The notes: generated by a model from the letters alone, not told the origin. Positions 28,735-42,804 are shown, counted from the first letter of the stretch. The stretch is DNA of 64,000 nt from Woeseiaceae bacterium (GCA_021773075.1 JAJFKT010000026.1:184356-248355); one strand, 5' to 3'. Made by a program: numbers and translations.

Positions 28735-29097
28735 ATGAACAGAATGCGAAACGCGAACACTTCAAAAAAACTCGCAGTACTGGTTTTTGTGTTCTTGATT
28801 GCATATTCCACGTCGTATTCAGAATACGGCGATGTGGTATTGGATCGATATAAAGACACTATGGCAGAAGTCGGCCTGGCACCGGTGGTGTTCCCCCACT
28901 GGACGCATCGAATTCAATTTAAGTGCAAGGCTTGCCATGAAGGTATCTTCCCCATGAAAAAGGGGGCGAGTGACATCACTATGTCAGCAATTATCGACGG
29001 CGAGTTTTGTGGCAATTGCCATAACGGAAAAATCGCCTGGGACCCACTTTATTGCGATCGATGTCATTCGCTGACAGAAACCGAAGATAAGCAGTAG
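28735..29097 (+). CDS. trihaem c7-type cytochrome domain protein (paralog 1, minimal)
   Basis: Signal peptide, then FPHWTHRIQFKCKACHEGIFPMKKGASDITMSAIIDGEFCGNCHNGKIAWDPLYCDRCH. This gives three CXXCH motifs in the spacing I associate with the c7-type trihaem domain (TIGR04257 from memory). Confidence 0.85.
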   Translation: MNRMRNANTSKKLAVLVFVFLIAYSTSYSEYGDVVLDRYKDTMAEVGLAPVVFPHWTHRIQFKCKACHEGIFPMKKGASDITMSAIIDGEFCGNCHNGKIAWDPLYCDRCHSLTETEDKQ

Positions 29098-29100
29098 CCC

Positions 29101-29700
29101 ATGTATATCAGGAATTCTCCAAATTTTGGCAGAATGGTGGTCCGGTTTTTCGTTTGTGCGGTCCTTGTGGGCTACGGCAGTCATCAACTTGTGCTGGCAC
29201 AGGAGCCAACAGCGCAGCCGTCAAAACCGGCAGCGGATGACGTGGTTGATCCTGTAGACACAGATGAGTTCGTAGGAGAAATGTACAAGATTGGACTCGG
29301 CTGGCATCCCACCGATCTTGAAGAGTTTCCCACGGACAAGTTCGGTCTGGTTGACTGGGTGGCAACATTGGAAAAGGGACTGATCCAACCAAGAGGCAGC
29401 ATTGCTGCAAACGCTGTGGAGGGAGTTCCTTTCGACATGAATGTACTCATGCCATCGAAAACCGGCATGATTGCAGGCGCACACTTCCCACATAAAACGC
29501 ATACCACCTGGATGGGGTGTGACAGCTGTCATATCAAAATATTTATGCCGCTTGCCGGCTCCAACGATCTAACGATGTCCACGATTGTTGAGGGAAAAGC
29601 ATGTGGCGTCTGTCATGGGAAAGTGGCTTTCCCACTCAATGACTGCGCCCGATGTCACGTGCCGCCGCCGCAGCCCGGTGATAGCGAAGCTGCCAAATAA
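29101..29700 (+). CDS. trihaem c7-type cytochrome domain protein (paralog 2, with N-terminal extension)
   Basis: HFPHKTHTTWMGCDSCHIKIFMPLAGSNDLTMSTIVEGKACGVCHGKVAFPLNDCARCH (three CXXCH). Signal peptide present. An alternative ATG lies at 29134. Confidence 0.85.
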   Translation: MYIRNSPNFGRMVVRFFVCAVLVGYGSHQLVLAQEPTAQPSKPAADDVVDPVDTDEFVGEMYKIGLGWHPTDLEEFPTDKFGLVDWVATLEKGLIQPRGSIAANAVEGVPFDMNVLMPSKTGMIAGAHFPHKTHTTWMGCDSCHIKIFMPLAGSNDLTMSTIVEGKACGVCHGKVAFPLNDCARCHVPPPQPGDSEAAK

Positions 29701-29734: not shown

Positions 29735-30310
29735 ATGCGCACTGCATCGACTTCCCTTCGCGTAGGTTTGGCTATGCTGATCTTCGTTTGTGGTGTCGCT
29801 GCAAACGAAAACATGCCGGCTGCGCTGGCTGAGGCAGATGATGAAAACTCGTCGCCAACGATAGATGCCGAAGCTACCTTCCTGGAGTCGTTGCATTATT
29901 CCCACGAAGAATTCGTGCGTATCTATGCATCTCTTCCAAGAGATGAAGACAACAAGGTTGATTGGGAGCGGGCAACCAGCGAAGGACTTATCAATCCCCT
30001 CGCTTCCATCGATGTAAACAGTGGCGAAGAATTCGTAATGGACCTTAAGGTTGTAATCAAATTCGACGACATGCTGATCAAGGATGTTGTTTTTTCCCAT
30101 GCCGTTCATACGTACTGGCTTAATTGCAGCTCATGTCACCCAAAGCTCTTCAAGCCGGAGATTGCCGCGAATCGTATGACGATGAAAGAGATACGCGCAG
30201 GAAAATATTGTGGTCATTGCCATGGGATGGTTGCATTCCCGACAGATGTGGTAGACGCCCCGAATTTCCGTGCTAATTGTCTAAGGTGCCATCGCGCTCA
30301 AAGAGGATAA
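29735..30310 (+). CDS. trihaem c7-type cytochrome domain protein (paralog 3, with N-terminal extension)
   Basis: FSHAVHTYWLNCSSCHPKLFKPEIAANRMTMKEIRAGKYCGHCHGMVAFPTDVVDAPNFRANCLRCH (three CXXCH). Signal peptide MRTASTSLRVGLAMLIFVCGVAA. Confidence 0.85.
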   Translation: MRTASTSLRVGLAMLIFVCGVAANENMPAALAEADDENSSPTIDAEATFLESLHYSHEEFVRIYASLPRDEDNKVDWERATSEGLINPLASIDVNSGEEFVMDLKVVIKFDDMLIKDVVFSHAVHTYWLNCSSCHPKLFKPEIAANRMTMKEIRAGKYCGHCHGMVAFPTDVVDAPNFRANCLRCHRAQRG

Positions 30311-30316: not shown

Positions 30317-30940
30317 ATGCGATACTACTTAATACTTCTTCTCCTAACCTCGATCTGGACGTTAACTCCGGACTCCATTCTTCTAGCCGAGGATGACGAT
30401 CCAGTGGATACCAAAATCGTCATAGAAAGAGCCAAAAACCTCAAAACCATGCTTGATCACCTGCTTGTTGATTCAAACCACAGCAGTATCCAGAAGGTCA
30501 TCAATGAAGGGGGCGAATCGAGCGAGCCACTCATTGCAGAGGCGCTCAGACTAAAATCGAGTGGTGAGCGATTGCTCACAGAAAAAAAATATTTGGAGGC
30601 CGCGATCGCGCTCCAGTCCGCGCTCGATCACGTTTTTCAGGCTATCAGGTCGGAGCACGACGAGAATGAGCCAGCGGATGCGCTGGAGTTCAGACTGGCA
30701 GAAAGTGTCGAGATAAACGACACGTTTATCTCGGCTGCGCTACGAGTCGTGAACGGCGAGCCGAGCAAGGAAGCGTCTGGTTTGCTGGAAATGGCCAAGG
30801 ATGTTCGAAGTAAAGCGGACATGCAGATCGCCAACGGTGATGTGGTAGCGGCGCTTGATAATCTGAAACAATCAACTGAAATGGCACAGCAAGCCATCAT
30901 GTCGGTCAGAAATGGCAAGGTCATTGAAAGACGCCAATAA
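30317..30940 (+). CDS. hypothetical exported all-helical protein
   Basis: Signal peptide MRYYLILLLLTSIWTLTPDSILLA, then a charged helical sequence with no Cys or haem motifs. It starts 7 nt after the preceding cytochrome gene. Confidence 0.5.
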   Translation: MRYYLILLLLTSIWTLTPDSILLAEDDDPVDTKIVIERAKNLKTMLDHLLVDSNHSSIQKVINEGGESSEPLIAEALRLKSSGERLLTEKKYLEAAIALQSALDHVFQAIRSEHDENEPADALEFRLAESVEINDTFISAALRVVNGEPSKEASGLLEMAKDVRSKADMQIANGDVVAALDNLKQSTEMAQQAIMSVRNGKVIERRQ

Positions 30941-30993: not shown

Positions 30994-31734
30994 ATGACAC
31001 TTCGAATCAAATACCTATTGATATTATGCGTGTGTTTATCCGCCGGCCTCTTAATTACGAACACAATAGGCGCAGGCCACGCTGCGCAGACAGATAGCGC
31101 GGTGGGAATACAACAGGACGTGCCGAGCACTATTGATGGGAAGGTATCGAAATCTATTAATGTTCCGGGATATACCTATGTTGAGGTTGATACTGGTGAT
31201 GACAAAATCTGGGCCGCTGTACCCAGCACCTCTGTAACTATTGGCGAGCAGGTGTCGTTTTCAATCGGGATACCGATGCAGAACTTCTACAGCAAGACCC
31301 TGCAACGCAATTTTCCAGTCATTTATTTTGTGGACCATTTTATCACTGACGACGGGGCCACAAGCATGAGTGCGGCCGCCGCGGCGGCACATGGCAGCAT
31401 CAGCCAGGAGCCGGTTGCGGAATTATCCGCAGATATCAGCAAGGTGGAAGGCGGCAATTCGATAGCCGAGGTGCATGCGCAAAAAGACGAACTTAACGGG
31501 GAAACGATACGTGTGCGGGGACAGGTAACCAAGTTCACCGCCGGCGTCCTGGGCAAGAACTGGGTTCATATCAGGGACAGAAGTACCACCAATGATCTGA
31601 CCGTTACCACCGATGCTACAGTTGCAGCCAGCGATGTTGTAATTTTCGAAGGAAAACTCGCACTGGATAAGGACTTTGGTTATGGCTATATTTATTCAGT
31701 CATTCTGGAGGATGCAAGTGTAACGAAGGAATAG
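30994..31734 (+). CDS. hypothetical exported protein with OB-fold-like C-terminal region
   Basis: Signal peptide. GYTYVEVDTGDDKIWAAVPSTSVTIGEQVSF, and later ETIRVRGQVTKFTAGVLGKNWVHIRD. I recall this pattern from proteins annotated as OB-fold in metal-reducing bacteria (from memory, unverified). Confidence 0.45.
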   Translation: MTLRIKYLLILCVCLSAGLLITNTIGAGHAAQTDSAVGIQQDVPSTIDGKVSKSINVPGYTYVEVDTGDDKIWAAVPSTSVTIGEQVSFSIGIPMQNFYSKTLQRNFPVIYFVDHFITDDGATSMSAAAAAAHGSISQEPVAELSADISKVEGGNSIAEVHAQKDELNGETIRVRGQVTKFTAGVLGKNWVHIRDRSTTNDLTVTTDATVAASDVVIFEGKLALDKDFGYGYIYSVILEDASVTKE

Positions 31735-31739: not shown

Positions 31740-32402
31740 CTAATCAGGAGCGTGCTCTGCCAACCATTCCTTTGCCAATTCCTCTGCTTCCGCAATTTGC
31801 TCTGAATTCATTACTTGCTCAAGCACAGATATGAGTCGTTTGGCAGCCGCGTCGTTATTCGTTGCTGCGATGTTGAACCACTTGTGTGCGTGCACATTAT
31901 CTTCCGCCGCACCCTCTCCGCGAAAATGCATCACGCCAAGCTGACTTTGCGCATCCGCATGACCTTGTTCTGCTGCTTCTAAAAACAGATCATACGCTTG
32001 CTGATAGTCTTGAGTGAGGTCGCTTCCTGAGAGATATCTTTTGCCAATCGCGAACTGTGCCATTGCAAGACCCTGCTCTGCGGCTTTCAACTGCCACGAT
32101 ACACCCAGTTCAACGTTTCGCGTGATGCCATTCCCGACGACGTACATCCTGCCCAGATCAAACTGGGCAATTGCGAGACCTTGCTCCGCCGCTTTGGCAT
32201 ACCAAAGCACTGCGTTCTTATCGTCCCTGGCCTTGCCCTTACCCGTGCGTTCCTTATTGCCATAAAAGCGTCCCAGATTGTACTGGGCGCGGGCATCGCC
32301 AGACTTTGCGGCTGATCTAAGCTCAGAAAAGTCGTTCGCAGTGGCCGGAGAATTTGAACACAGAATAATGAACAGAAATATTGATATCGGGATCCGCAGC
32401 AT
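31740..32402 (-). CDS. Sel1-like (SLR/TPR) repeat protein, exported
   Basis: ATG 32402 gives the signal MLRIPISIFLFIILCSNSPATA. Repeated SLR units: AQYNLGRFY...AVLWYAKAAEQGLAIAQFDLGRMY...GVSWQLKAAEQGLAMAQFAIGKRY...AYDLFLEAAEQGHADAQSQLGVMH... Confidence 0.85.
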   Translation of the reverse strand: MLRIPISIFLFIILCSNSPATANDFSELRSAAKSGDARAQYNLGRFYGNKERTGKGKARDDKNAVLWYAKAAEQGLAIAQFDLGRMYVVGNGITRNVELGVSWQLKAAEQGLAMAQFAIGKRYLSGSDLTQDYQQAYDLFLEAAEQGHADAQSQLGVMHFRGEGAAEDNVHAHKWFNIAATNNDAAAKRLISVLEQVMNSEQIAEAEELAKEWLAEHAPD

Positions 32403-32501
32403 AGCCGTTTGCAATTTCTCGCTCTGATTGGTTCTGGGATAATTATCTTAGAACGTTCTGGACGACGATGTCCAACGATACTCCGCGGCTTTCCGCCTCG
32501 T

Positions 32502-32559: not shown

Positions 32560-32636
32560 CCGCCCCATATTATTGCTGTCAATGGAGAGGGAAATTCATC
32601 CAGCTCAGCTTTGAAAACAAACGAAGGGGACATGTA

Positions 32637-33332
32637 ATGAAGACTTTAATCTCAGGCCAAGGGAATCGCATGCTAACGACCCTGTTGTCGGGGTTATTGA
32701 TGGGAATGGGAATCCTGTTCTCAACATCCGCGTTGGCCCAGGACAATACGACGATCGTCGGCTCTCCCCACGATTTTCGAACTCAAGGGTGGGTTAACAA
32801 TGGTAACAACGAAATTTGCGTGGTTTGTCATACACCGCATAACGCAATTTCCCCTCAAGACGGACCGTTGTGGAATCGTTCTTTGACAACCTCGACTTTC
32901 ACGTTGTACACGGCCAATTCTGCAACTCCTGGTAGCGATATTCAGGGCACAGGCTTCAATCAACCGTCGGGTGTATCAAGGCTATGCTTATCCTGCCACG
33001 ACGGGACCATTGCGATCGACGCTTTTGGTGGCTTGACTGGAACGGAAACGATGGATGACATTAACGTCGCCGCAAATCTCGGTGACGTGGTTGGCGGCGT
33101 CGGTGATTTGAGCAACGATCATCCGGTGGCCTTCACTTTTCCGACTACCGATCCTGAAATCGTTCCTAATGTAAACGGCCTGGTCGCGGGTGTGATGCCG
33201 CTATTTGGCGTAGGTCAAGATCAGATGGAGTGCGCTTCCTGCCATGATGTGCATGCTACAAATACATTTGACCAGCTACTCAGGGTTGACAATGACGGTA
33301 GCGCACTCTGCCTGACCTGCCACACAAAATAG
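32637..33332 (+). CDS. tetrahaem c-type cytochrome (stand-alone copy of the N-terminal module of the dodecahaem proteins)
   Basis: ATG 32637 gives the signal MKTLISGQGNRMLTTLLSGLLMGMGILFSTSALA. Motifs CVVCHTPH...PLWNR, CLSCHDGTIA, DHPVAF, CASCHDVH, CLTCH (4 CXXCH). The upstream part of ORF 32409 has no coding character. Confidence 0.85.
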   Translation: MKTLISGQGNRMLTTLLSGLLMGMGILFSTSALAQDNTTIVGSPHDFRTQGWVNNGNNEICVVCHTPHNAISPQDGPLWNRSLTTSTFTLYTANSATPGSDIQGTGFNQPSGVSRLCLSCHDGTIAIDAFGGLTGTETMDDINVAANLGDVVGGVGDLSNDHPVAFTFPTTDPEIVPNVNGLVAGVMPLFGVGQDQMECASCHDVHATNTFDQLLRVDNDGSALCLTCHTK

Positions 33333-33492: not shown

Positions 33493-34626
33493 ATGCGACG
33501 AGTGCGAAGCAGAAACCTAAAAAATCATTTCCTGGTCGCGGTTTTTCTGTCCGTCTGTCTGGTTCCGGCGTACTCACAAGATCGGATGGACAGCGAAGAT
33601 GGCACAAGCACACTTTTCTATCCAGCGTTGCCGGAAGCTCCACGTATTCAGTACCTGACCAGCTTCTCGGTAGCTGGCGATGTAAAAGAGAAAAAGAAAA
33701 AGAGAAGTGGCTGGTTAAGCGATTTTGTCCTCGGCGAGCAGAACCCCGAGGACGATGAGGGACCGCAAAAACCCTATGGTGTGTCGCTCAACAATGGCCA
33801 GGTCCACGTCGTGGATACTCGGGGAGGCGGTTATGCGATCTTCGATGTGCCCGGTAAAGACTATCGGTTCACCCTCGGGTCAGGGTCTGCTGTTATGTCG
33901 AAACCCATCAACATAGAAATTGACGATGCGGGAACGAAGTATGTCACCGATACCGAGAGAGGTCAGATTCTTGCTTTTGACAGCAACGATAAGTTTCTGA
34001 GGGCCTACGGCAAACGCGGGGAATTCCGGCCGACGGATATTCTGGTTGACGAAGGTCGTTTGTACGTGGTCGATATTCAGGGGCACCGGATCATGGTGCT
34101 CGACAAAGATACTGGCGTCGAACTCAGTTCCTTCGGTGGGCCGGGCGCAGAAGAACATAATTTCTTTCAACCGACCAACATCGCCCTCGGGCCGAACAAG
34201 CATCTATATATTAGTGATACGGGCAATTTCCGTGTGCAAAAATTTACGCGGGACGGTGAGTTTGTGCAAAGTTTTGGAGCAGGCGTTGGCACTGCACCGG
34301 GTGACTTCGCACGCCCCAAAGGTATAGCTGTGGATCGTATGGGCCGGCTTTACGTCGTAGACGCCGCGTTCGAGACTGTTCAAATCTTCAGCAGCCAGGG
34401 TGAGCTGCTATTGTATTTTGGCGAGCCGGCGTCGACGCATCGAGGGGGGCTGGACCTGCCGGCAGATATCGATATTGACTATGACAGCGTCCCCTTTTTC
34501 CAGCAGTACGCGGATCCGGGTTTCAATCTCGAATATATCATTGTCGTTGCCAATCAGTTTGGCAGCAGCAGTGTCAATGTTTTTGGCTTCGGGCGCTATG
34601 AGTCGATGAGATATGAAGACGAGTAA
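33493..34626 (+). CDS. NHL-repeat six-bladed beta-propeller protein 1 (exported)
   Basis: Signal MRRVRSRNLKNHFLVAVFLSVCLVPAYS. Repeated NHL units such as LYVVDIQGHRIMVLDKDTGVELSSFG, FFQPTNIALGPNKHLYISDTGNFRVQKFTRDGEFVQSFG and FARPKGIAVDRMGRLYVVDAAFETVQIFSSQGELLLYFG. Confidence 0.85.
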   Translation: MRRVRSRNLKNHFLVAVFLSVCLVPAYSQDRMDSEDGTSTLFYPALPEAPRIQYLTSFSVAGDVKEKKKKRSGWLSDFVLGEQNPEDDEGPQKPYGVSLNNGQVHVVDTRGGGYAIFDVPGKDYRFTLGSGSAVMSKPINIEIDDAGTKYVTDTERGQILAFDSNDKFLRAYGKRGEFRPTDILVDEGRLYVVDIQGHRIMVLDKDTGVELSSFGGPGAEEHNFFQPTNIALGPNKHLYISDTGNFRVQKFTRDGEFVQSFGAGVGTAPGDFARPKGIAVDRMGRLYVVDAAFETVQIFSSQGELLLYFGEPASTHRGGLDLPADIDIDYDSVPFFQQYADPGFNLEYIIVVANQFGSSSVNVFGFGRYESMRYEDE

Positions 34627-34687: not shown

Positions 34688-36697
34688 ATGCGTGAAATCG
34701 TTCTAACTTGCGTTGCACTGGTGTCGATCCTGTTGCCTGACTTCGCGGCCGCCGAGGACGAACTGGCTATTTTTAGGCTAACGAATGTACAGGCCTATAT
34801 AGAATTGCTATATCGAAAGAACGTGTTTAATAATCGAGCGACAGGGATTGAGACTGCTATTGACGATTACAGACCGCAAATCGAAGTCGGCACGTCCACC
34901 AATAGTTACATCTTTCATCCAAAACTGTTGCAGATAAGTTTGGCCGGGAGTTTGCTGTCCGATCGACAGGATATTAGCCGTCAGCAGTTATCAGTAGCGA
35001 CTAATGGGACAACAGAGTCGATCAGCCGTCAAAAACAAGTCTTACTGAACATCAACACAACGTTGCGGCTCTTGAAGGACAAACACTTTCCAACGACTTT
35101 TTCTTATCTGCGCGAAAATCCGGTTGTGCGAACTGGTCTGGAAGGTAGCTTTACACAGACAACAGAAAGATACGGCGTTGACTTTCAATTGCGAGACGTA
35201 TTACCCGTAAGCCTTTCAATAAACGCGTTCACCGATTCGTTCTTTGGGGAGTCCCTTGACCGGATAGTGGACTTTACCTCCGATCGTGTCACCGTAAAGT
35301 CGAGGAAAACCTTTTCCTCGGGTGACCGGTTTGCACTGAGTTACGAGGTGTCGAATCGAAATTCGCGAAACGGAGATCCCAGGAGAATGATCCAGGAAAC
35401 CCTGCGTCGATCGCGAAATCTGGCATTGACATCTAACTGGCGCCTGGGCAGCGGCGATCAGTTGCATATTGATCAAACCGCCAGCTTTAATCGGCGCGAC
35501 AACCCGGATGTGACAGACATCAATTTTTCACCCAGATTTCGCTGGCTACATTCCTCCACACTCCAGTCCAGGTATCGTTACAGTTTCAACCAGTCCGAAA
35601 GACCGGAGTCCATGATCAAGAACCGAACGGAAAGGTCAAGCGCTGCACTGCACTATTCGCCGACGCCGACAATGAATGGTTTCGTTCGCGCCAACTTCGA
35701 TCAATCGGAGGAAAAAAGTCGACTTCTGCAGAGCGCTTTTGGGCTGACGTCGAGAGGTAGTTTCAAGAAAACCTCGAAGATCGGGCTACTCAATTTGTCC
35801 CTTGGGCTTGGTTATGAACGCAAGGATAGGGAGTCCCTGGTAACGCAGATTAGTGTCATAGAGGAATCCGTCGAACTAGTCGGAACTCTACCGATTTTCC
35901 TGTCGAGGGACTTCGTCATTATTGGTACCGTGACGGTCCGCAATGAAACAGGCACCCAGATCCTTAGCGAGGGTGTCGATTATCGCCTGGTTGAGATCGG
36001 TTCCCGGACGCAGATAGAACGATTGATCGGCGGCGGTATTCTTGATGGAGAAACCGTGTTAGTCGACTACGATGCGCAAACTGGCGGGACCTTCGAGTAC
36101 TCACAGATAAGCCAGACGGCGAACCTCGACTTCAAATTTGCGAAATATCATAATATTTTCCTACGCTACCGCAATAACAGGCAAATACTGGAATCCGGTT
36201 TCTCAACGCTTCCGTTTAATTCGGTGAGGTCTGTGGAAGTCGGTCTGCGAGAACAAGTGCCTCTGCGCTGGATGGGACTCCAGCTTTATGGAGAGGCAAG
36301 GTATCTTCACCAGGATGAAGACATCAACCCGTATGAGCAGAAAAGTGTCCTTGTTTCCGTACAGGCACCGTTGCCGTATCGGCTGAAGTTGAGTTTATCG
36401 GCATCGCGGAACTTTGTGGATAATCTGAATTCCGTTGAGGACACGGACATGACGGTATTCAATGCCAACTTGAACTGGAACCCAAGAAGAAACCTGACGG
36501 TCAGGGCGGAAGGATATTACGATAAAGATACCGGAGGGACAATATTACGTAGCAGGACCAAGGGGAAACTAAGAGCGCAATGGCGATATCGAAAAATCCT
36601 TGTTGCAATGGACGCGACGTATGAAAAACAGCGGCAAGGAATTATCGAGAGTGATAATTACGAGCTTTGGTTGCGAATCAGAAGAGAGCTATTTTGA
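34688..36697 (+). CDS. large putative outer-membrane beta-barrel protein (no recognised family)
   Basis: 669 aa. Signal peptide ...LLPDFAAA-ED. Long run of short alternating amphipathic segments rich in R/N/S/Y/F. C-terminal ...YELWLRIRRELF (terminal Phe, OMP-type signal). No Cys or haem motifs. Confidence 0.6.
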   Translation: MREIVLTCVALVSILLPDFAAAEDELAIFRLTNVQAYIELLYRKNVFNNRATGIETAIDDYRPQIEVGTSTNSYIFHPKLLQISLAGSLLSDRQDISRQQLSVATNGTTESISRQKQVLLNINTTLRLLKDKHFPTTFSYLRENPVVRTGLEGSFTQTTERYGVDFQLRDVLPVSLSINAFTDSFFGESLDRIVDFTSDRVTVKSRKTFSSGDRFALSYEVSNRNSRNGDPRRMIQETLRRSRNLALTSNWRLGSGDQLHIDQTASFNRRDNPDVTDINFSPRFRWLHSSTLQSRYRYSFNQSERPESMIKNRTERSSAALHYSPTPTMNGFVRANFDQSEEKSRLLQSAFGLTSRGSFKKTSKIGLLNLSLGLGYERKDRESLVTQISVIEESVELVGTLPIFLSRDFVIIGTVTVRNETGTQILSEGVDYRLVEIGSRTQIERLIGGGILDGETVLVDYDAQTGGTFEYSQISQTANLDFKFAKYHNIFLRYRNNRQILESGFSTLPFNSVRSVEVGLREQVPLRWMGLQLYGEARYLHQDEDINPYEQKSVLVSVQAPLPYRLKLSLSASRNFVDNLNSVEDTDMTVFNANLNWNPRRNLTVRAEGYYDKDTGGTILRSRTKGKLRAQWRYRKILVAMDATYEKQRQGIIESDNYELWLRIRRELF

Positions 36698-36726: not shown

Positions 36727-37749
36727 ATGCGAGCAGCTATTTGCTTTGTCGTTGTGCTTGCGGCGTGCGTGCCGGTCGTGCACGGGCCGATCTACGAAAT
36801 GGAGATTGCAGAGCCAGTGTGGCCGGCAGCCCCCTCAAGGCCACGATTGGCTTTTGTAATGTCTTTTTCGGGCACGGAAGAACTCGGAATTAGAAAAAAC
36901 TTCTTGCAACAGTTACGGGCGTTGATCGGCGGGGCGCGTCAAGTCCGGTTGGTTCGGCCGGTGGCAGTTGTCGAAAGCTCCGACAAGCAGTTGTTTGTCG
37001 CTGATCCCGGAATGCGTGGCGTACATCGTTTCGACCTAGAGAGAGGCGGGTACCAGTTGATTCAGGGAGAGAACGGTCAACCGTTGTCATCGCCTGTCGC
37101 GCTTGCCGCCGGGTTGAGTGGTGAGGTCTATGTTACGGATTCACGTTTGGCCGCCGTATATGTTATTGAGCCCGGTAAAACCGTCGCCGAAAAAGTACCT
37201 CTTGAGGCCCTATTGGCGCGGCCGACCGGGCTGGCGCTGGACCCCTCAAGTGGGCGACTCTATCTCGTCGATACGGGCAGTCATGAAGTAAAAATATTCG
37301 CTCGCGACGGAGCTTTGCTGAAGCGATTTGGTCGCCGCGGTACAGGAACAGGTGAATTTAATTTTCCGACTATGATCTGGATGAACAATGCTGGTGAAAT
37401 TCTGGTTTCAGATTCCATGAATTTTCGGACACAGGTATTCGATTCTGCCGGAAACTTCCTGCGCCAATTTGGTGAAGCTGGCGATGGCGCAGGACATCAG
37501 GCACAAGGCAAGGGAATAGCGACAGACAGTAAGGGCCATGTGTATATCGTTGATTCGATGATGCACGCAGTTCAGGTTTTCGATCCGTCGGGCAACTTTC
37601 TATTCAAGTTAGGCTTTCGAGGGGAAGGTCCAGGAGAGTTCTGGTTACCGGCCGGCATCTTTGTCGGCGAGAGGGATACGATTTATGTGGCCGATTCCTA
37701 TAACGGCCGAATTCAGGTGTTCCGGTATATTGGTGGTAACTCGCCATGA
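36727..37749 (+). CDS. NHL-repeat beta-propeller lipoprotein 2
   Basis: ATG 36727 gives MRAAICFVVVLAAC (lipobox). NHL units: FNFPTMIWMNNAGEILVSDSMNFRTQVFDSAGNFLRQFG, GKGIATDSKGHVYIVDSMMHAVQVFDPSGNFLFKLG, FWLPAGIFVGERDTIYVADSYNGRIQVF. Its stop overlaps the next start (ATGA 37746-37749). Confidence 0.85.
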   Translation: MRAAICFVVVLAACVPVVHGPIYEMEIAEPVWPAAPSRPRLAFVMSFSGTEELGIRKNFLQQLRALIGGARQVRLVRPVAVVESSDKQLFVADPGMRGVHRFDLERGGYQLIQGENGQPLSSPVALAAGLSGEVYVTDSRLAAVYVIEPGKTVAEKVPLEALLARPTGLALDPSSGRLYLVDTGSHEVKIFARDGALLKRFGRRGTGTGEFNFPTMIWMNNAGEILVSDSMNFRTQVFDSAGNFLRQFGEAGDGAGHQAQGKGIATDSKGHVYIVDSMMHAVQVFDPSGNFLFKLGFRGEGPGEFWLPAGIFVGERDTIYVADSYNGRIQVFRYIGGNSP

Positions 37750-39437
37750 AATATGTAGGTTCGTCCTGTCTGATCTTGTTGGTGCTTTACTTGGCCGGCG
37801 GTATGTCCATGGCACAGCAAACATTCAATATGGAAGACAGCCGGCATGATCTGGCCATAGTCCTGTCGACCGGCTATGAAGGCGAGGTCAATGATGCTCA
37901 GTGTATCTTCTGTCATCCTCCCCGCAGTCAGACGCTAAAGATTGGATTGTGGAATGAGGCGCCAGCGGAGAATCTCTTTGACTACCCCTACGGCAGGCAG
38001 GATGAAAAAGGGACACCGGGCAAACCGGACGGTTCTTCGCTTGTCTGCCTCGGCTGTCATGACGGAACTATTGCTCTGGGCGACATACTCAGTCGTACTC
38101 AGTCGATCAGCAATAGTCGAGACACAAAACGTACTGACTTGTCCGACGGTCACCCTATCTCATTCTCGTATGATTCAACTCTGGTGGACAAGAATGATGA
38201 ACTTGAAAATCCAAAGACGTTAAGGCAACAGGTGAGGCTTGACACAACAGGCAAGATCCAGTGTACGAGTTGCCATGATCCCCATGACGATACCAATGGA
38301 AATTTCCTGGTAATGGACAACAGTTCAACAGCGCTGTGTGTCACGTGCCATAAAAAGGCCGGTTGGGGTACATCTCTGCACAATATTTCATCAGCGACCT
38401 GGAACCGTAGGGGACAGGATCCATGGCCATTCAATAATTTGAGAGGTTCAGTTGTAGAGCACGGTTGTTCTAATTGCCACACGCCCCACGCGGCAGGGAA
38501 TGGCCAATATCTTCTCAATTTCAATGTCGAAGAAGACAATTGCGCGGCATGTCACAATGGCAATGTGGCGGCTACAGATATCAGTGCAGAATTTAACAAA
38601 ATCTCGCATCACCCCATTGAGCAGACGACCGATATTCATGCAACGGATGAAGCGATCATTGTGAATGCGGAGGATCGTCATGTTGAGTGTGTTGATTGTC
38701 ATGACCCTCATTCCGTGAGTACGGCCGATGCGAACGGTACCACTGTCACCTGGAAAAATGTTCGCGGCGTGGATGTTAATGGTGGAGAAAAAACAGAGGC
38801 TATCGCAGAATTTGAATCGTGTTTTCGCTGTCATGGTGACAGCCCGGGAAAGGCCGCCATGCCAACCCCGCGCCTGCACGACCAGAATAACGTTCGGCTT
38901 CAGTTTGATAATGGTAATCCATCATTTCATCCGGTAGTTGGCCCCGGTAACAACTCAAACGTCCCATCTTTGATAGCACCATTGAGCGAAAACAGTACTA
39001 TCGCCTGCAGTGATTGCCACTCCAGTGATAACGACTCGAGTCTCGGTGGGAACGGGCCTGATGGACCGCATGGGTCGATTTACCGGTCTTTGTTGATTCG
39101 GGCCTATCAAACACAGGACCAGACACCTGAGAGTCCCGGCGCTTATTCCTTGTGTTATATGTGTCACGATCGGAACAGCATTCTTGGTGATGAGAGCTTT
39201 GCGCAGCACAGATTACACATCAGCGATAACAACACCCCTTGTAGTGTCTGCCACGACCCGCACGGGATAAGCTCTGTACAGGGGAATACAGTCAACAACT
39301 CACACTTGATTAATTTCGATACATCTGTCGTTTTCCCAAACAGCGGTAATGACCTTCATTTTGAGGATCGTGGAGATCTCAGCGGAGCCTGCTTTTTGGC
39401 ATGCCACAATCTTGAACATGACGGTCTTTCATATTGA
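37746..39437 (+). CDS. dodecahaem c-type cytochrome A (11 CXXCH + 1 CX3CH)
   Basis: Signal peptide. Haem motifs: CIFCH, CLGCH, CTSCH, CVTCH, CSNCH, CAACH, CVDCH, CFRCH, CSDCH, CYMCH, CSVCH, plus C-terminal CFLACH. Conserved DGHPISF and NPSFHPVVGPG blocks. Confidence 0.9.
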   Translation: MKYVGSSCLILLVLYLAGGMSMAQQTFNMEDSRHDLAIVLSTGYEGEVNDAQCIFCHPPRSQTLKIGLWNEAPAENLFDYPYGRQDEKGTPGKPDGSSLVCLGCHDGTIALGDILSRTQSISNSRDTKRTDLSDGHPISFSYDSTLVDKNDELENPKTLRQQVRLDTTGKIQCTSCHDPHDDTNGNFLVMDNSSTALCVTCHKKAGWGTSLHNISSATWNRRGQDPWPFNNLRGSVVEHGCSNCHTPHAAGNGQYLLNFNVEEDNCAACHNGNVAATDISAEFNKISHHPIEQTTDIHATDEAIIVNAEDRHVECVDCHDPHSVSTADANGTTVTWKNVRGVDVNGGEKTEAIAEFESCFRCHGDSPGKAAMPTPRLHDQNNVRLQFDNGNPSFHPVVGPGNNSNVPSLIAPLSENSTIACSDCHSSDNDSSLGGNGPDGPHGSIYRSLLIRAYQTQDQTPESPGAYSLCYMCHDRNSILGDESFAQHRLHISDNNTPCSVCHDPHGISSVQGNTVNNSHLINFDTSVVFPNSGNDLHFEDRGDLSGACFLACHNLEHDGLSY

Positions 39438-40456
39438 GCGAGCGAACCGTGACCAGGTCAATAATAATACTGACGCTTTTGATTGCTGTTGCCTGTACGC
39501 CAGCAAGGCTAAAGGATGCTGATATTTCTGCCTCTGAAGCGCAGGCAGTCTGGCCTGATCCGCCACAGGAGGCCCGGATTCGATATCTGTATTCTTTCAG
39601 CGAACCCACTGATCTGGGAATCAAACCCAGGGCGTTCTCGCGTTTCTTACAGGTGTTTACAGGTAAGGAAAGTCAGCGAATGTTGAGGCCGTATTCTATT
39701 GCTGCCGACGATGACATGATTGTTATTGTCGACCCGGGGCTCAAGGTCGTTCACCTCTATATGACCAAGCGAAAGAAATATGCAGTGATTAGCGATGTTG
39801 ATGGTGAAAGCTTTGTATCACCGGTCGGGATCAGCCTGGGGCATGACGCCATCTACCTCACTGACTCCGCCCTAGGCAAGGTTTTCGTTTTCGATCGGCA
39901 AGGTGAACATAAAAATACGATCACAGGTCTGATGCGTCCTACTGGGATTGTCTTTCATTCTGCCAGTCGGCGCCTTTACGTCACCGATACGCTCGAAAAT
40001 CAGATAGTCGTATTCGACGACAAAGGCGTACAACTGAACGCATTTGGAGCAAGAGGGGGAGCGGTCGGTGAATTCAATTTCCCCTCATTTCTCACCCTGC
40101 ATGGCGATATCCTTTACGTGAATGACACGATGAACTTTCGCATACAAGCGTTCACTCTGGATGGATCTCCTGTTGCTTCCTTTGGCAAATCCGGCGATGG
40201 GTCTGGACAGTTCGCGCTTTCAAAAGGGCTGGGTGCAGATAGGCAGGGGCACCTCTATGTTGCTGATTCCCTGTCAAACTACATTCAAATATTCGATGCG
40301 GAGGGCCGCTTTCTATTGTCCTTTGGTGGCATGGGGGGAAACATAGGACAATTCAGGTTGCCGGTTGGTATTTACATATTGAAAAACAGGATATTCGTCG
40401 CTGATTCCCAGAATCAGCGCGTGCAGGTTTTTGAATATATCGGGGGTGACACCTGA
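39434..40456 (+). CDS. NHL-repeat beta-propeller lipoprotein 3
   Basis: The start is either TTG 39434 (TTGA overlap with the upstream stop) or GTG 39449, giving (M)TRSIIILTLLIAVAC (lipobox). NHL units: FNFPSFLTLHGDILYVNDTMNFRIQAFTLDGSPVASFG, LSKGLGADRQGHLYVADSLSNYIQIFDAEGRFLLSFG, FRLPVGIYILKNRIFVADSQNQRVQVF. Confidence 0.85.
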   Translation: MSERTVTRSIIILTLLIAVACTPARLKDADISASEAQAVWPDPPQEARIRYLYSFSEPTDLGIKPRAFSRFLQVFTGKESQRMLRPYSIAADDDMIVIVDPGLKVVHLYMTKRKKYAVISDVDGESFVSPVGISLGHDAIYLTDSALGKVFVFDRQGEHKNTITGLMRPTGIVFHSASRRLYVTDTLENQIVVFDDKGVQLNAFGARGGAVGEFNFPSFLTLHGDILYVNDTMNFRIQAFTLDGSPVASFGKSGDGSGQFALSKGLGADRQGHLYVADSLSNYIQIFDAEGRFLLSFGGMGGNIGQFRLPVGIYILKNRIFVADSQNQRVQVFEYIGGDT

Positions 40457-42213
40457 TGCGGTGCGCGGCGGTTTTGATTGTTCTCCTGCTGTGCGTCGCG
40501 CCCGTTGGAACGGCGTCGGATATCTCTGCTACAAGGCATAATCTGTCCGTTTCCGGATCGGGGTCAGTGACGAGCGGATCCGTTAATGAGGTCTGCGTCT
40601 TTTGTCATACGCCGCACCATTCTTCACAAAGTGCGCCGTTGTGGAACCGCGAACTTCCCACCGGACAAACCTACCAGTTGTACGGTAGCAGCACTCTCGA
40701 TGCGTCACCTGAAAACCCGCAGCTAAGGTCAGGTAATCATTCCCTGCTTTGTCTTTCATGTCATGACGGCACGATTGCATTGGGGGATTTTATTAACCCA
40801 TCCCAGGAAGATACCGGCTTTGTATTTGGGGCTGGCGACAGGGGCAGGCTGGGTACTGATTTGAGTAACGATCATCCGGTTTCATTTACTTACGACAACA
40901 GTTTGTCACTCAGTGATACGCGTCTGCATCCGCCAGGGATCAATGGTGCGAACATCGCACCTCTGCCGTTGCAGGGCGGGCAATATCTTGAATGTACGAC
41001 TTGTCACGACGTACACGACAACACGCTGCAACCATTTCTTTATGAGCAATCACTGAATGGCGACCTTTGTCTTAAGTGCCATGATTTTGCAACCTGGGAC
41101 TTTGCGGTTTCATCGCATGCCACGCAGACCGGAAACACGCCAGGCTCACCCGGACCCTGGGATAACAGGAGAGCGGAATGGCGCGGTTTCAATGTTGCCG
41201 AGAACAGTTGTTTCAACTGTCACACTCCACACGGTGCTCCATCGCCGGAACGATTGCTCAAGGATGTTGAAGAGAATACCTGTTTGCAATGTCACAACGG
41301 CACCGTTGCCGACACCAATATCGCTGCCGAGTTTAACAAGGCCTCCAGCCATCCAATTGATATGACAACGGACGTTCACGATCCCAGTCCAAGCGTCGAG
41401 TCTGCCATTGTCCAGTCCCGGCATGTGGAATGTGTTGATTGCCATAACCCGCATGCGGTCAGTGGTACTGATATTGGCAATCTGCCTGGACCACTAAACG
41501 GTGTCAGGGGGCTCGACTCGTCTGGCCTCGGCGAAGTAAATCCAATTACCGAGGTGTACCAGCTGTGTTTTCGCTGTCATGCCTACAGTGGCAGTAAACC
41601 GGCACCACCGACGGCACGCGTGCACGAACAGACCAATGTCGCAATGGAGTTTGATACCGGTAATCCATCATTCCATCCGATACTCGGACCAAGCGTTAAT
41701 CCTAACGTACCCAGCCTTATCATTGCGCCGGGTAGTATTATTACGTGTATCGACTGTCACAATAGTAATACATCCAGCACGGCCGGTGGCAGTGGCCCTG
41801 ATGGACCGCATGGTTCCACCTTTCCGACATTGCTCGCTCGTCGATATGTGACGGCAGACAATACTCGCGAGAGTGCTGCTGTATATGCGCTGTGTTTGAA
41901 TTGTCACGACTATGACAGCATTCTTAACGATGATAGCTTCGGTGAACATTCCAGGCATCTTGAGAATGGTGATGTGCCCTGTAATGCTTGCCATGACCCG
42001 CACGGTGTCTCATCGACCCAGGCGACATCCAGTAATGGCTTTCCCAACAATACACATTTGATCAACTTCGACACCGGAATTGTCTCGCCTACGCTGGGCA
42101 ACCCCGCACCATTATTTGAAGACGGTGGTACTTTCCGCGGCACGTGTACTCTCAGCTGTCACGGCGAGCAACATTGTCCGGGTGACAATTGCGATATTGA
42201 TGCCCGTTATTAG
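40456..42213 (+). CDS. dodecahaem c-type cytochrome B (11 CXXCH + 1 CX3CH)
   Basis: The start ATG overlaps the upstream stop by 1 nt (TGATG). Signal MRCAAVLIVLLLCVAPVGTA. Motifs: CVFCH, CLSCH, CTTCH, CLKCH, CFNCH, CLQCH, CVDCH, CFRCH, CIDCH, CLNCH, CNACH, plus CTLSCH. Colinear with 37746..39437. Confidence 0.9.
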   Translation: MRCAAVLIVLLLCVAPVGTASDISATRHNLSVSGSGSVTSGSVNEVCVFCHTPHHSSQSAPLWNRELPTGQTYQLYGSSTLDASPENPQLRSGNHSLLCLSCHDGTIALGDFINPSQEDTGFVFGAGDRGRLGTDLSNDHPVSFTYDNSLSLSDTRLHPPGINGANIAPLPLQGGQYLECTTCHDVHDNTLQPFLYEQSLNGDLCLKCHDFATWDFAVSSHATQTGNTPGSPGPWDNRRAEWRGFNVAENSCFNCHTPHGAPSPERLLKDVEENTCLQCHNGTVADTNIAAEFNKASSHPIDMTTDVHDPSPSVESAIVQSRHVECVDCHNPHAVSGTDIGNLPGPLNGVRGLDSSGLGEVNPITEVYQLCFRCHAYSGSKPAPPTARVHEQTNVAMEFDTGNPSFHPILGPSVNPNVPSLIIAPGSIITCIDCHNSNTSSTAGGSGPDGPHGSTFPTLLARRYVTADNTRESAAVYALCLNCHDYDSILNDDSFGEHSRHLENGDVPCNACHDPHGVSSTQATSSNGFPNNTHLINFDTGIVSPTLGNPAPLFEDGGTFRGTCTLSCHGEQHCPGDNCDIDARY

Positions 42214-42255: not shown

Positions 42256-42804
42256 CTAAAGTTTTGGCGTGGGACGGTCCCTGCCTTCGCCAAATAGGCG
42301 GCCGACGCTCATTCGCATAGCGTCAGTTGCGTCGGCGGTCCGCAGGGCCAGACGAAGGCATGTACCAATTGCGGGTTGCAGCGGCATCGCATCCAAATCC
42401 ATGCCGTCCAACAGGTTCTTCACGTAAAGGCCAAGTTCGGTGTCCCCCGAGGTGCTTAGGTGGCGACGAAAGAACAGCGTGTCTGTGTCCTCGGTGCGCG
42501 TCATTAATTGCAGGAACGCGTAGGCTCTGCCGGATATCTGCAGATCACCGTCCCGGGTTGCGCGTAGAACACGAAGCTTGTTTTCCACCAACGTCAGGCT
42601 GAAGCCAAGATCCACGTCTTCGAAAAAAACCGTCACGACCCGGTCACCGAGAAAGTCGAGATCTCCGCCAGCCAGATGCTCCGCGAACATGAGGTTCAAT
42701 GCATGTTCGGTTGGCAGCCGGGCAAAACGTCTGGGCAACCAACCCAGCGACTTTGCAACGATGAACGGTACGACCGGTGGTTTTGCATTGGCTTCGGTCA
42801 TCAT
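42256..42804 (-). CDS. ubiT: SCP2-domain ubiquinone anaerobic biosynthesis accessory factor UbiT (YhbT-like)
   Basis: 182-aa protein of SCP2 lipid-binding type, in an operon with ubiU/ubiV homologues. ATGA overlap with the ubiD stop. Confidence 0.7.
   Translation of the reverse strand: MMTEANAKPPVVPFIVAKSLGWLPRRFARLPTEHALNLMFAEHLAGGDLDFLGDRVVTVFFEDVDLGFSLTLVENKLRVLRATRDGDLQISGRAYAFLQLMTRTEDTDTLFFRRHLSTSGDTELGLYVKNLLDGMDLDAMPLQPAIGTCLRLALRTADATDAMRMSVGRLFGEGRDRPTPKL

What the first reader, a model, noticed from the sequence alone, without database searches (positions are those of the whole stretch)
36727..42213. Duplicated, translationally coupled gene pairs: NHL lipoprotein followed by dodecahaem cytochrome
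The order is NHL2, MHC-A, NHL3, MHC-B, with every junction overlapping. NHL2 stop / MHC-A start is ATGA at 37746-37749. MHC-A stop / NHL3 start is TTGA at 39434-39437 (or GTG 11 nt downstream). NHL3 stop / MHC-B start is TGATG at 40454-40458. The two pairs are paralogous: the cytochromes are colinear with the same 12 motifs, and the NHL proteins share blade sequences. Tight coupling of a propeller lipoprotein to each large cytochrome suggests 1:1 complexes. The propeller might act as a lipid-anchored docking or chaperone subunit, or as a substrate-binding module.
Basis: partly seen in the sequence, partly recalled or inferred. Interest (0 to 1): 0.7.

Follow-up and report, generated by a model that had tools for sequence, protein, structure and literature searches.

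The report
Duplicated propeller-cytochrome pairs in nanowire cluster
The two propeller-lipoprotein and twelve-haem cytochrome gene pairs are real, but they are the tail end of an already described kind of bacterial "electron wiring" gene cluster (OmcE nanowire / Uet type), with the propeller-cytochrome unit copied once more in this lineage.

Summary
NHL2, MHC-A, NHL3 and MHC-B lie at the stated coordinates. Each cytochrome has 11 CxxCH plus one CxxxCH motif. The cytochromes are 42% identical and colinear, and the propellers are 37% identical.

The pairs are not a stand-alone system. They end a + strand island (about 27.8-42.2 kb) that encodes:
- three trihaem c7 cytochromes;
- a full-length homologue of the nanowire subunit OmcE;
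- NHL1;
- a 28-strand MtrB-like outer-membrane barrel;
- the two pairs.

In 78 of 78 informative loci from more than ten phyla, a homologous dodecahaem gene is directly preceded by an NHL gene, usually with a 4-nt overlap. The NHL proteins carry lipoboxes and the cytochromes do not. The pair stays together when the cluster is rearranged.

The second pair occurs only in this gammaproteobacterial lineage. MHC-B is the most conserved protein of the island. MHC-A evolves fast and has lost a conserved haem-ligand histidine.

Clusters with NHL propellers beside multihaem cytochromes are published (D. ferrophilus 2018, Uet 2022, OmcE clusters 2025). A 1:1 lipid-anchor complex is plausible but untested; a crude covariation test did not single it out. 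One possibly new point: the first 200 residues of the dodecahaem are a complete OmcE-like module, so it might be a filament base.

The parts
27791..28519 (+). OmpR-type response regulator at the head of the island
   Evidence: Pfam Response_reg + Trans_reg_C. The same gene precedes the cluster in relatives L081, L083 and L084.
28735..29097 (+). Trihaem cytochrome c7 (first of three); likely periplasmic electron carrier
   Evidence: Pfam Cytochrome_C7, E 1.4e-15. Conserved in L081 and L084.
29101..29700 (+). Trihaem cytochrome c7 (second)
   Evidence: Pfam Cytochrome_C7, E 1.7e-10.
29735..30310 (+). Trihaem cytochrome c7 (third)
   Evidence: 3 CxxCH. Pfam Cytochrome_C7 E 1.5e-12; NCBIfam nanowire_3heme E 2.8e-17.
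30317..30940 (+). Secreted protein of unknown function (orf2)
   Evidence: No family hit. Conserved in position in L081 and L084.
30994..31734 (+). Secreted protein of unknown function (orf3), recurrent in related clusters
   Evidence: Only a weak TOBE hit. Homologues found in at least 13 of the 80 loci.
31740..32414 (-). Sel1-repeat protein on the opposite strand, inside the island
   Evidence: Pfam Sel1, E 4e-27. Same position and strand in L081 and L084.
32634..33332 (+). OmcE-like tetrahaem cytochrome; candidate nanowire subunit
   Evidence: 4 CxxCH and 4 further His. Full-length match to OmcE filament chains 7tfs_A (E 5e-22) and 9yuq_N (E 6e-22), ending at the same C-terminal CH(T/K)K. 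Ordinary signal peptide.
33493..34626 (+). NHL1, six-bladed beta-propeller of the type that sits beside the OmcE-like gene and the barrel gene
   Evidence: Pfam NHL E 1.8e-16. 31% identical to NHL3. Orthologues carry a lipobox in 44 of 48 loci. Forms its own clade.
34688..36697 (+). Large outer-membrane beta-barrel (28 strands) with an ~80-residue beta insertion
   Evidence: AF2 mean pLDDT 90.5, all-beta, 28 long strands, insertion at residues 387-464. Best PDB fold match is MtrB 6r2q_B, E 8e-9. Signal peptide and C-terminal ...RRELF. No sequence match in PDB or Pfam.
36727..37749 (+). NHL2, beta-propeller lipoprotein upstream of MHC-A
   Evidence: Pfam NHL E 3e-29. Lipobox LAAC. Nests in the proteobacterial clade of NHL genes that precede dodecahaem genes.
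37746..39437 (+). MHC-A, dodecahaem cytochrome (fast-evolving copy)
   Evidence: 11 CxxCH + CFLACH. N-terminal residues 29-204 match the OmcE-like model over positions 4-185 of 185, E 1.5e-37. 59-66% identical to orthologues in relatives. The conserved CHTPH His is replaced by Arg60.
39434..40456 (+). NHL3, beta-propeller lipoprotein upstream of MHC-B
   Evidence: Pfam NHL E 4e-17. Lipobox-like AVAC. Long branch within the clade of NHL genes that precede dodecahaem genes.
40456..42213 (+). MHC-B, dodecahaem cytochrome (slow-evolving copy)
   Evidence: 11 CxxCH + CTLSCH. Residues 21-210 match the OmcE-like model, E 6.5e-48. 81-84% identical to orthologues, the most conserved protein of the island. 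B-type orthologues occur only on contigs that also carry A-type genes.

Best explanation
The two pairs are the distal genes of an OmcE-type / Uet-like extracellular electron transfer island.

Shown:
- The island encodes three periplasmic trihaem c7 cytochromes, a free OmcE-like tetrahaem subunit, a 28-strand MtrB-like outer-membrane barrel, three NHL beta-propeller proteins (at least NHL2 and NHL3 with lipoboxes), and two paralogous dodecahaem cytochromes.
- The first ~200 residues of each dodecahaem are a complete OmcE-like four-haem module.
- The unit 'NHL lipoprotein gene followed by an overlapping dodecahaem gene' is ancestral and near-universal in this family.
- In this gammaproteobacterial lineage the unit is present twice.

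Inferred:
- Each NHL propeller is an outer-membrane lipid-anchored scaffold or assembly factor. It holds its own non-lipidated cytochrome at the barrel. Overlapping reading frames favour roughly equal synthesis of the two proteins.
- The dodecahaem carries electrons between the periplasmic c7 cytochromes and the cell surface or the OmcE-like filament.
- The second pair arose by tandem duplication and then diverged. MHC-B became the strongly constrained core conduit. MHC-A is a fast-evolving variant with altered haem ligation.
For: - Identity of the parts.
- OmcE homology: the tetrahaem matches 7tfs_A and 9yuq_N at E ~5e-22. The dodecahaem family profile matches 7tfs_A at E 3e-40 over the whole OmcE chain. 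An HMM of 54 free OmcE-like subunits matches dodecahaem heads over nearly its whole length (positions 2-4 to 184-185 of 185) at E 1e-37 to 1e-56.
- Conserved neighbourhood: 78 of 78 informative loci have an NHL gene directly upstream. 47 have the order OmcE-like, NHL1, barrel, NHL, dodecahaem. 16 have the permuted order in which the NHL-dodecahaem unit stays intact.
- Overlap conservation.
- Lipobox on the propellers but not on the cytochromes.
- Lineage-specific second pair: none of the 80 species-representative loci has two dodecahaem genes. Relatives L081-L084 keep both. The A and B clades are sisters in 78 of 100 bootstraps.
- Rate asymmetry. His to Arg change.
[quoted passage not shown] The Uet cluster has a tetrahaem, a 28-strand barrel, three c7 trihaems, two NHL proteins and an 11-CXXCH cytochrome (bioRxiv 10.1101/2022.05.06.490989). 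D. ferrophilus NHL propellers were proposed to stabilise the cytochrome complex (PMC5815863).
Against: - No interaction, localisation or expression data exist for this locus.
- Mirror-tree partial correlation for the NHL-dodecahaem pair is low (0.14), versus NHL-NHL 0.69 and NHL1-barrel 0.54.
- NHL2 and NHL3 are never sisters in the tree (0 of 100). A simple unit duplication therefore needs fast divergence of NHL3; otherwise the second pair was acquired from elsewhere.
- The AF2 model of MHC-A was too poor (pLDDT 48.6) to check shape or haem geometry.
- The direction of electron flow is unknown.
Confidence: 0.6

Rival explanations
1. The NHL propellers are parts of the secretion and assembly channel together with the beta-barrel, like the channel-like accessory proteins of the OmcS system. 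They are not stable 1:1 partners of the cytochromes. The gene order only ensures co-expression.
For: - Covariation is strongest among NHL1, the upstream NHL and the barrel (0.69, 0.54, 0.40), and between barrel and dodecahaem (0.50). It is weak for NHL-dodecahaem (0.14).
- In the osc cluster, accessory proteins are assigned to folding, secretion and morphology of OmcS filaments (Shen et al. 2025 as cited in PMC13194489).
- Petersen et al. treat the barrel as 'secretion or anchor'.
- NHL3 is not constrained like MHC-B.
Against: - The NHL gene was duplicated together with the cytochrome gene while the barrel gene was not.
- The NHL-dodecahaem unit moves as a block away from the barrel gene in 16 loci.
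- A separate NHL clade accompanies other large cytochromes that have no barrel gene of their own.
- The mirror-tree analysis is crude, and the barrel distances are near saturation (mean p-distance 0.77).
Confidence: 0.25
2. The second pair (NHL3 + MHC-B) did not arise by tandem duplication. It was acquired by horizontal transfer and inserted behind MHC-A.
For: - NHL2 + NHL3 monophyly is found in 0 of 100 bootstraps. NHL3 falls outside the proteobacterial clade, and its nearest neighbours include Verrucomicrobiota and Myxococcota loci.
- The paralogues are as distant from each other (about 45%) as from other phyla (about 47%).
- The island has lower G+C than its flanks.
Against: - The MHC-A and MHC-B clades are sisters in 78 of 100 bootstraps.
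- No B-type cytochrome closer than 50% identity was found outside the lineage that also has the A-type, and both sit on the same contigs.
- Long-branch effects can explain the placement of NHL3.
Confidence: 0.2
3. The NHL proteins are enzymes or substrate/mineral-binding modules (for example lactonase- or arylesterase-like, or metal-binding), and they act on the extracellular substrate rather than on the cytochromes.
For: Weak Pfam hits to SGL, Arylesterase and Lactonase propeller families.
Against: - These hits reflect the shared propeller fold.
- Positions conserved at 90% or more are the structural blade residues (D..N.R.Q.F, Gly and Pro). There is no conserved Cys or Met, and only one His reaches 88%.
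- The closest solved relatives are protein- and RNA-binding NHL domains of TRIM71, TRIM2/3 and Brat.
Confidence: 0.05

Closest known systems
OmcE cytochrome-nanowire gene clusters of Desulfuromonadia (G. sulfurreducens GSU0618 region; D. soudanensis WTL), as described in bioRxiv 10.1101/2025.10.22.684050
   Same: OmcE-homologous tetrahaem subunit, large outer-membrane beta-barrel, beta-propeller lipoproteins and two further multihaem cytochromes. The paper gives exactly this parts list for the minimal cluster.
   Different: - Here there are three propellers and two paralogous dodecahaems.
- The dodecahaems carry an OmcE-like N-terminal module. The paper states that no OmcE-like tip or initiator candidate is encoded in the OmcE operons it studied.
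- Three c7 trihaem genes and a response regulator are part of the array here.
- The host is a gammaproteobacterium.
- Homology of the non-OmcE parts to the Geobacter proteins was not tested.
Uet (undecahaem electron transfer) cluster uetABCDEFGHIJ of Candidatus Tenderia electrophaga and some Gallionella (bioRxiv 10.1101/2022.05.06.490989; PMC10734462)
   Same: Tetrahaem (UetA), a barrel predicted to have 28 strands (UetC; 28 strands in the model here), three c7 trihaems (UetD/E/G), two NHL proteins (UetH/I), and a cytochrome with 11 CXXCH (UetJ; 11 CxxCH plus one CxxxCH here).
   Different: - No peptidyl-prolyl isomerase (UetB) or cupredoxin (UetF) was found in the island.
- The gene order differs.
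- There is an extra NHL + cytochrome pair.
- Sequence homology to the Uet proteins could not be tested here.
Desulfovibrio ferrophilus IS5 cytochrome island DFE_0448-0451 / DFE_0461-0465 (PMC5815863; PMC8322314; used as markers by FeGenie, PMC7005843)
   Same: Large multihaem cytochromes interleaved with six-bladed NHL beta-propellers, one of them (DFE_0463) a predicted lipoprotein. The propellers were proposed to stabilise the outer-membrane cytochrome complex.
   Different: A sulfate reducer, with different cytochrome sizes and gene order. No OmcE-like subunit or barrel is reported in the passages read. Homology was not tested here.
MtrCAB and Geobacter porin-cytochrome conduits
   Same: A large barrel whose best solved structural match is MtrB (6r2q_B). 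A rod-like multihaem cytochrome is a candidate to sit in it. Weak family-level hits to DmsE/MtrA and to MtrC domain II/IV models.
   Different: - The barrel has 28 rather than 26 strands and no detectable sequence similarity.
- The cytochromes are not lipoproteins. Lipid anchors sit on separate NHL proteins, which Mtr lacks.
- NCBIfam scores are far below the family cut-offs (55.9-57.2 vs 192.2).
osc (OmcS-companion) cluster of G. sulfurreducens (Shen et al. 2025, read only through its citation in PMC13194489)
   Same: A nanowire subunit gene accompanied by genes assigned to folding, secretion and filament morphology. From my own memory of that paper, these include a porin-like protein and a beta-propeller-like protein.
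   Different: The filament subunit is hexahaem OmcS. The paper itself could not be read here, and no sequence comparison was made.

Membership tests
OmcE-type cytochrome nanowire cluster | Tetrahaem OmcE homologue with four CxxCH and four further haem-ligand histidines | tested here: met
   Window 32634-33332 matches 7tfs_A (E 5.4e-22) and 9yuq_N (E 6.2e-22) through to the C-terminus. It has 8 His in the conserved positions PHDF, CHTPH, DHP and CHDVH.
OmcE-type cytochrome nanowire cluster | Large outer-membrane beta-barrel gene next to the OmcE gene | tested here: met
   Window 34688-36697: AF2 pLDDT 90.5, 28 strands. Best fold match MtrB, followed by TonB-dependent receptors, ushers and LptD.
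OmcE-type cytochrome nanowire cluster | Beta-propeller lipoprotein genes in the cluster | tested here: met
   NHL1, NHL2 and NHL3 have Pfam NHL repeats. Lipobox in NHL2 (LAAC) and NHL3 (AVAC), and in most orthologues. The window's NHL1 has an atypical box (LSVC).
OmcE-type cytochrome nanowire cluster | Two additional multihaem cytochrome genes | tested here: inconclusive
   MHC-A and MHC-B are present. Whether they are homologous to the two Desulfuromonadia cytochromes was not tested. Most related genomes have only one dodecahaem gene.
OmcE-type cytochrome nanowire cluster | The tetrahaem polymerises into an extracellular filament | not testable with these tools
   Needs microscopy of the organism or a heterologous host.
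Uet cluster (Tenderiales) | Cytochrome with eleven CXXCH (UetJ) and a tetrahaem (UetA) | tested here: inconclusive
   The motif counts agree (11 CxxCH + 1 CxxxCH; 4 CxxCH). No Uet sequence was available for alignment.
Uet cluster (Tenderiales) | 28-strand beta-barrel UetC | tested here: inconclusive
   The model has 28 long strands, the number predicted for UetC. Homology was not tested.
Uet cluster (Tenderiales) | Three c7-type trihaem cytochromes (UetD, UetE, UetG) and two NHL proteins (UetH, UetI) | tested here: met
   Three Cytochrome_C7 genes at 28735-30310 and three NHL genes. This is a match at the level of domain content only.
Uet cluster (Tenderiales) | Peptidyl-prolyl isomerase UetB and cupredoxin UetF; gene order uetA to uetJ | tested here: not met
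   No PPIase or cupredoxin domain in any ORF of the island. The order here is c7 x3, orf2, orf3, tetrahaem, NHL, barrel, NHL, cytochrome, NHL, cytochrome.
MtrA/DmsE decahaem family and MtrC/OmcA family | Score above the curated family cut-off; MtrC-type proteins are lipoproteins | tested here: not met
   TIGR03508: 55.9 (MHC-A) and 57.2 (MHC-B) bits vs cut-off 192.2. No TIGR03507 hit for either dodecahaem at E <= 0.01. There is no lipobox on the dodecahaems. Only the Pfam MtrC-MtrF_II-IV domain passes its cut-off, in MHC-A (47.5 vs 30).
NHL-repeat six-bladed beta-propeller (PF01436) | NHL repeats above the gathering score | tested here: met
   NHL1 59.7, NHL2 100 and NHL3 61.7 bits vs cut-off 20. 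The closest solved structures are the TRIM71, TRIM2/3 and Brat NHL domains.

The most novel reading that the evidence does not exclude
The dodecahaem (UetJ-like) cytochrome is the membrane-proximal base (or cap) of an OmcE-type nanowire.

- Its N-terminal domain is a complete OmcE-like subunit. That domain co-polymerises with the free OmcE-like tetrahaem through the inter-subunit histidine-haem bond known for OmcE.
- Its eight-haem tail threads the 28-strand barrel, as MtrA does in MtrB.
- Its dedicated NHL lipoprotein pins it to the outer membrane.
- The window's lineage would then carry two alternative bases: conserved MHC-B, and fast-evolving MHC-A, which lacks one ligand histidine.

Support:
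- The OmcE-like module occurs in these loci in two forms only: the free four-haem subunit (63 ORFs, plus four five-haem variants and a few cut or aberrant ORFs), and the head of the dodecahaem (78 full-length and 2 truncated).
- Both forms are cut by signal peptidase about five residues before the same conserved N-terminal His.
- Authors of the OmcE work state that no initiator or tip candidate is encoded in the operons they studied.
Probability: 0.2. Interest if true: 0.75.

Novelty: new variant of a known kind. Interest (0 to 1): 0.42.

Why it matters
How cytochrome nanowires are secreted, anchored and electrically joined to the cell is an open question in the field. The role of the beta-propeller lipoproteins in these clusters has not been tested.

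This locus does not reveal a new system, but it adds three things:
- It shows that the NHL-lipoprotein plus dodecahaem unit is an ancient, near-invariant module. At least 567 species genomes carry a relative, and the family has 1,581 clusters at 50% identity with E <= 1e-30.
- It shows that the dodecahaem carries an OmcE-like head.
- It gives a natural experiment: two diverged cognate pairs beside a single barrel. Swapped-pair interaction tests could decide whether each propeller is specific for its cytochrome or for the barrel.

The module also occurs in Woeseiaceae, Rhodocyclaceae, Ignavibacteria, Calditrichia and Bacteroidota. That bears on how widespread nanowire-type electron exchange is in sediments.

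Tried and rejected
- AF2 of MHC-A with a 64-sequence alignment gave mean pLDDT 48.6. No fold search was run on it, and haem geometry could not be examined.
- No multimer prediction tool was available, so cognate versus swapped NHL-cytochrome pairs could not be modelled.
- Mirror-tree covariation over 39 complete loci did not single out the NHL-dodecahaem pair. The first run failed because the distance correction saturated, and p-distances were used instead. I treat the result as weak evidence only.
- The idea that the dodecahaem is three tandem OmcE-like modules was not supported. Only the first module matches full length; the rest gives short, colinear, motif-level fragments (E 0.001-0.06).
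- A 'histidine budget' argument for a one-sided filament cap was dropped. The family has about 16 conserved non-motif His for 12 haems, so the count is not decisive.
- The promoter/terminator scan found fewer or no more sites than shuffled sequence.
- Direct homology tests against Uet, Geobacter GSU0615-0617 and D. ferrophilus DFE proteins were not possible.
- Shen et al. 2025 and Wang et al. 2022 (OmcE structure) are not held in the library.
- The source contig of the window could not be looked up. The organism is known only as a gammaproteobacterium-like lineage, from the affinities of its proteins.


Full report
**1. Observation**

- NHL2 is best started at ATG 36727, which gives the lipoprotein signal MRAAICFVVVLAAC.
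- MHC-A spans 37746-39437, NHL3 39434-40456 and MHC-B 40456-42213.
- ATGA (37746-37749) and TGATG (40454-40458) are true stop/start overlaps.
- TTGA (39434-39437) is an overlap only if the TTG is used; the next in-frame start, GTG 39449, lies 11 nt after the stop.
- Each cytochrome has 11 CxxCH and one CxxxCH. The latter is invariant in a 64-member alignment.
- MHC-A and MHC-B are 42% identical end to end (E 2e-144). NHL2 and NHL3 are 37% identical (E 5e-74).

**2. Surroundings**

In order, it holds:
- an OmpR-type response regulator (27791-28519);
- three trihaem c7 cytochromes (28735-30310);
- two secreted proteins of unknown function;
- a Sel1-repeat gene on the other strand;
- a tetrahaem cytochrome (32634-33332);
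- a third NHL gene (NHL1, 33493-34626; 31% identical to NHL3);
- a 669-residue protein with no family match (34688-36697).

The tetrahaem is a full-length homologue of the nanowire subunit OmcE. It matches the filament structures 7tfs_A and 9yuq_N at E about 5e-22, it has the four haem motifs and four further histidines, and it ends at the same C-terminal residue.

The 669-residue protein gives a confident AF2 model (pLDDT 90.5). The model is a 28-strand barrel with an ~80-residue beta insertion between strands 17 and 18. Its best solved structural match is MtrB of the Mtr complex, followed by TonB-dependent receptors, pilus ushers and LptD.

**3. The dodecahaem family**

The family is very large.
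- More than 5,700 proteins reached E <= 1e-10 among the 8,000 candidates scored.
- An exhaustive profile search found 1,581 clusters at 50% identity with E <= 1e-30.
- At least 567 species-representative genomes carry a relative.

The best 80 loci cover Gamma- and Betaproteobacteria, Ignavibacteria, Calditrichia, Bacteroidota, Nitrospirota, Desulfobacterota, Myxococcota, Planctomycetota, Verrucomicrobiota, Lentisphaerota and KSB1.

The N-terminal ~200 residues of the family are a complete OmcE-like module.
- The family profile matches OmcE at E 3e-40 over the whole chain.
- An HMM built from 54 free OmcE-like subunits matches dodecahaem heads over nearly its whole length (positions 2-4 to 184-185 of 185) at E 1e-37 to 1e-56.

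In the 80 loci this module occurs in two forms only. One is the free subunit: 63 four-haem ORFs, plus four five-haem variants and a few cut or aberrant ORFs. The other is the head of the dodecahaem: 78 full-length and 2 truncated.

**4. Conservation of the NHL-cytochrome unit**

- In 78 of 80 loci an NHL gene lies directly upstream of the dodecahaem gene. The other two loci are cut at the cytochrome start.
- 47 loci have the order OmcE-like, NHL1-type, barrel, NHL, dodecahaem.
- 16 loci (Ignavibacteria, Calditrichia and some Bacteroidota) have NHL-dodecahaem first and OmcE-like, NHL1-type, barrel after it. The two blocks that stay intact are therefore [NHL + dodecahaem] and [OmcE-like + NHL1 + barrel].
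- The NHL stop and the cytochrome start overlap by 4 nt in 37 of 58 evaluable loci, and by 1-11 nt in 46.
- Both NHL types carry lipoboxes in most loci: 36 of 50 upstream-type by a strict pattern (about 46 of 50 by eye) and 44 of 48 NHL1-type by a looser pattern. The dodecahaems and the OmcE-like subunits have ordinary signal peptides, cut about five residues before a conserved N-terminal histidine.
- A third, non-lipoprotein NHL clade sits directly upstream of other cytochromes with 8-24 CxxCH in 9 of 11 cases.

**5. The duplication**

- None of the 80 species-representative loci has two dodecahaem genes.
- Metagenomic relatives of the window (MHC-A 58-66% identical) keep the whole array, including NHL3 and MHC-B.
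- A slightly more distant relative (55%) has a different second pair instead.
- B-type cytochromes closer than 50% identity were found only on contigs that also carry the A-type.
- In neighbour-joining trees the A and B clades are sisters in 78 of 100 bootstraps. NHL2 and NHL3 are never sisters: NHL2 nests among proteobacterial orthologues, and NHL3 is a long branch.
- A tandem duplication followed by fast divergence of the second copy is the simplest reading. Acquisition of the second pair by transfer is not excluded.
- Between three members of the lineage, MHC-B is the most conserved protein of the island (81-88%). MHC-A (59-66%) and NHL3 (58-66%) are among the least conserved.
- The A clade has replaced the CHTPH histidine with arginine. 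That histidine is conserved in the rest of the family and in OmcE.

**6. Mechanism**

Shown: the parts list, the conserved unit, the complementary distribution of lipid anchors, and the OmcE-like head.

Inferred:
- The island builds an outer-membrane electron conduit of the OmcE-nanowire / Uet type.
- The c7 trihaems carry electrons across the periplasm.
- A dodecahaem works at or in the barrel.
- The OmcE-like subunit forms the extracellular polymer.
- Each NHL lipoprotein holds or assembles its own cytochrome at the outer membrane, with overlapping frames favouring matched synthesis.

Against a strict 1:1 complex:
- The mirror-tree analysis shows stronger covariation among the two propellers and the barrel than between propeller and dodecahaem.
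- Constraint on NHL3 and MHC-B is unequal.

The main rival is that the propellers belong to the secretion and assembly channel. The co-duplication and co-migration of NHL with the cytochrome argue against that rival. The direction of electron flow cannot be told from the sequence. The neighbouring UbiT-UbiD and UbiU/UbiV genes point to ubiquinone-based anaerobic respiration.

**7. Comparison with what is known**

- *Uet cluster.* It also matches the Uet cluster of Candidatus Tenderia by domain content and counts: tetrahaem, 28-strand barrel, three c7 trihaems, two NHL proteins and an 11-CXXCH cytochrome (bioRxiv 10.1101/2022.05.06.490989; PMC10734462). It lacks the Uet isomerase and cupredoxin, and the gene order differs.
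- *D. ferrophilus.* NHL propellers beside large cytochromes were reported in 2018 and proposed to stabilise the complex (PMC5815863; PMC8322314).
- *What was tested.* Membership in the OmcE-type cluster is met for the features that could be tested. Orthology to Uet, Geobacter and D. ferrophilus proteins other than OmcE was not tested.
- *Mtr.* The locus is not a member of the Mtr families.

**8. Novelty and verdict**

The finding is real, but it is an instance of a known kind of system with a lineage-specific extra copy of one module. Two things may go beyond the papers I could read:
- the OmcE-like head of the dodecahaem, and its strict co-occurrence with a free OmcE-like subunit;
- the breadth of phyla that carry the five-gene module.

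The most novel reading not excluded is that the dodecahaem is the base or cap of the filament.

Scores: interest 0.42; new variant of a known kind.

Noticed in passing
window 32634-33332 and 33394-33411: The OmcE-like tetrahaem gene is followed 60 nt later by a weak terminator-like hairpin with a T-run. This could let the putative filament subunit be expressed above the downstream genes. The scan as a whole found no more terminator-like sites than shuffled sequence.
   Followed up: partly
window 34688-36697 (protein residues 387-464): The 28-strand barrel model has an ~80-residue, well conserved small beta domain inserted between strands 17 and 18, on the predicted extracellular side. It gave a weak NCBIfam hit to a phage tail tube protein (E 4e-4, below cut-off). 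It might be a plug or a docking domain.
   Followed up: partly
window 37746-39437 (MHC-A residue 60): All A-clade dodecahaems of this lineage have Arg (rarely Pro or Asn) where the rest of the family and OmcE have the His of CHTPH, one of the four distal haem ligands of the OmcE module. One haem of MHC-A may be ligated differently, or in trans.
   Followed up: partly
window 40456-42213: MHC-B is the most conserved protein of the whole island among three lineage members (81-88% identity). Its upstream partner NHL3 is among the least conserved (58-66%).
   Followed up: yes
window 42256-46292 (- strand): Directly downstream lie an SCP2-domain protein (UbiT-like), UbiD, UbiV and UbiU. This is the set for oxygen-independent ubiquinone biosynthesis, consistent with anaerobic respiration in the host.
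   Followed up: partly
window 24001-34000: G+C is 47-50% here against 51-57% in the flanks, and it covers the sensor kinase, the c7 genes and the first part of the cluster. This may be a sign of island-like origin. The downstream flank differs between relatives (glycosyltransferases in L081/L082, TPR genes in L084).
   Followed up: partly
window 23487-27612 (- strand): A hybrid PAS/HAMP sensor histidine kinase (888 aa), a small periplasmic protein and a 355-residue protein that looks like an outer-membrane protein are transcribed divergently from the response regulator that heads the cytochrome array. They may be its regulator.
   Followed up: no
window 30317-31734 and 31740-32414: Two secreted proteins without family assignment and a Sel1-repeat protein on the opposite strand are kept at the same place in the relatives. 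Homologues of the second protein (orf3) recur near the module in at least 13 loci of other phyla.
   Followed up: partly
loci L007, L020, L032, L036, L048, L052, L072, L085: Many related loci carry a further pair a few kb downstream: a non-lipoprotein NHL protein followed, often with a 4-nt overlap, by a much larger cytochrome (13-24 CxxCH in the loci where the count was made, up to 1018 aa). NHL followed by cytochrome therefore looks like a general rule in these islands.
   Followed up: partly
loci L011, L024, L047, L074: Some loci encode five-haem variants of the OmcE-like subunit. These fit the 'five-CxxCH OmcE-like' proteins mentioned in the 2025 OmcE preprint.
   Followed up: no
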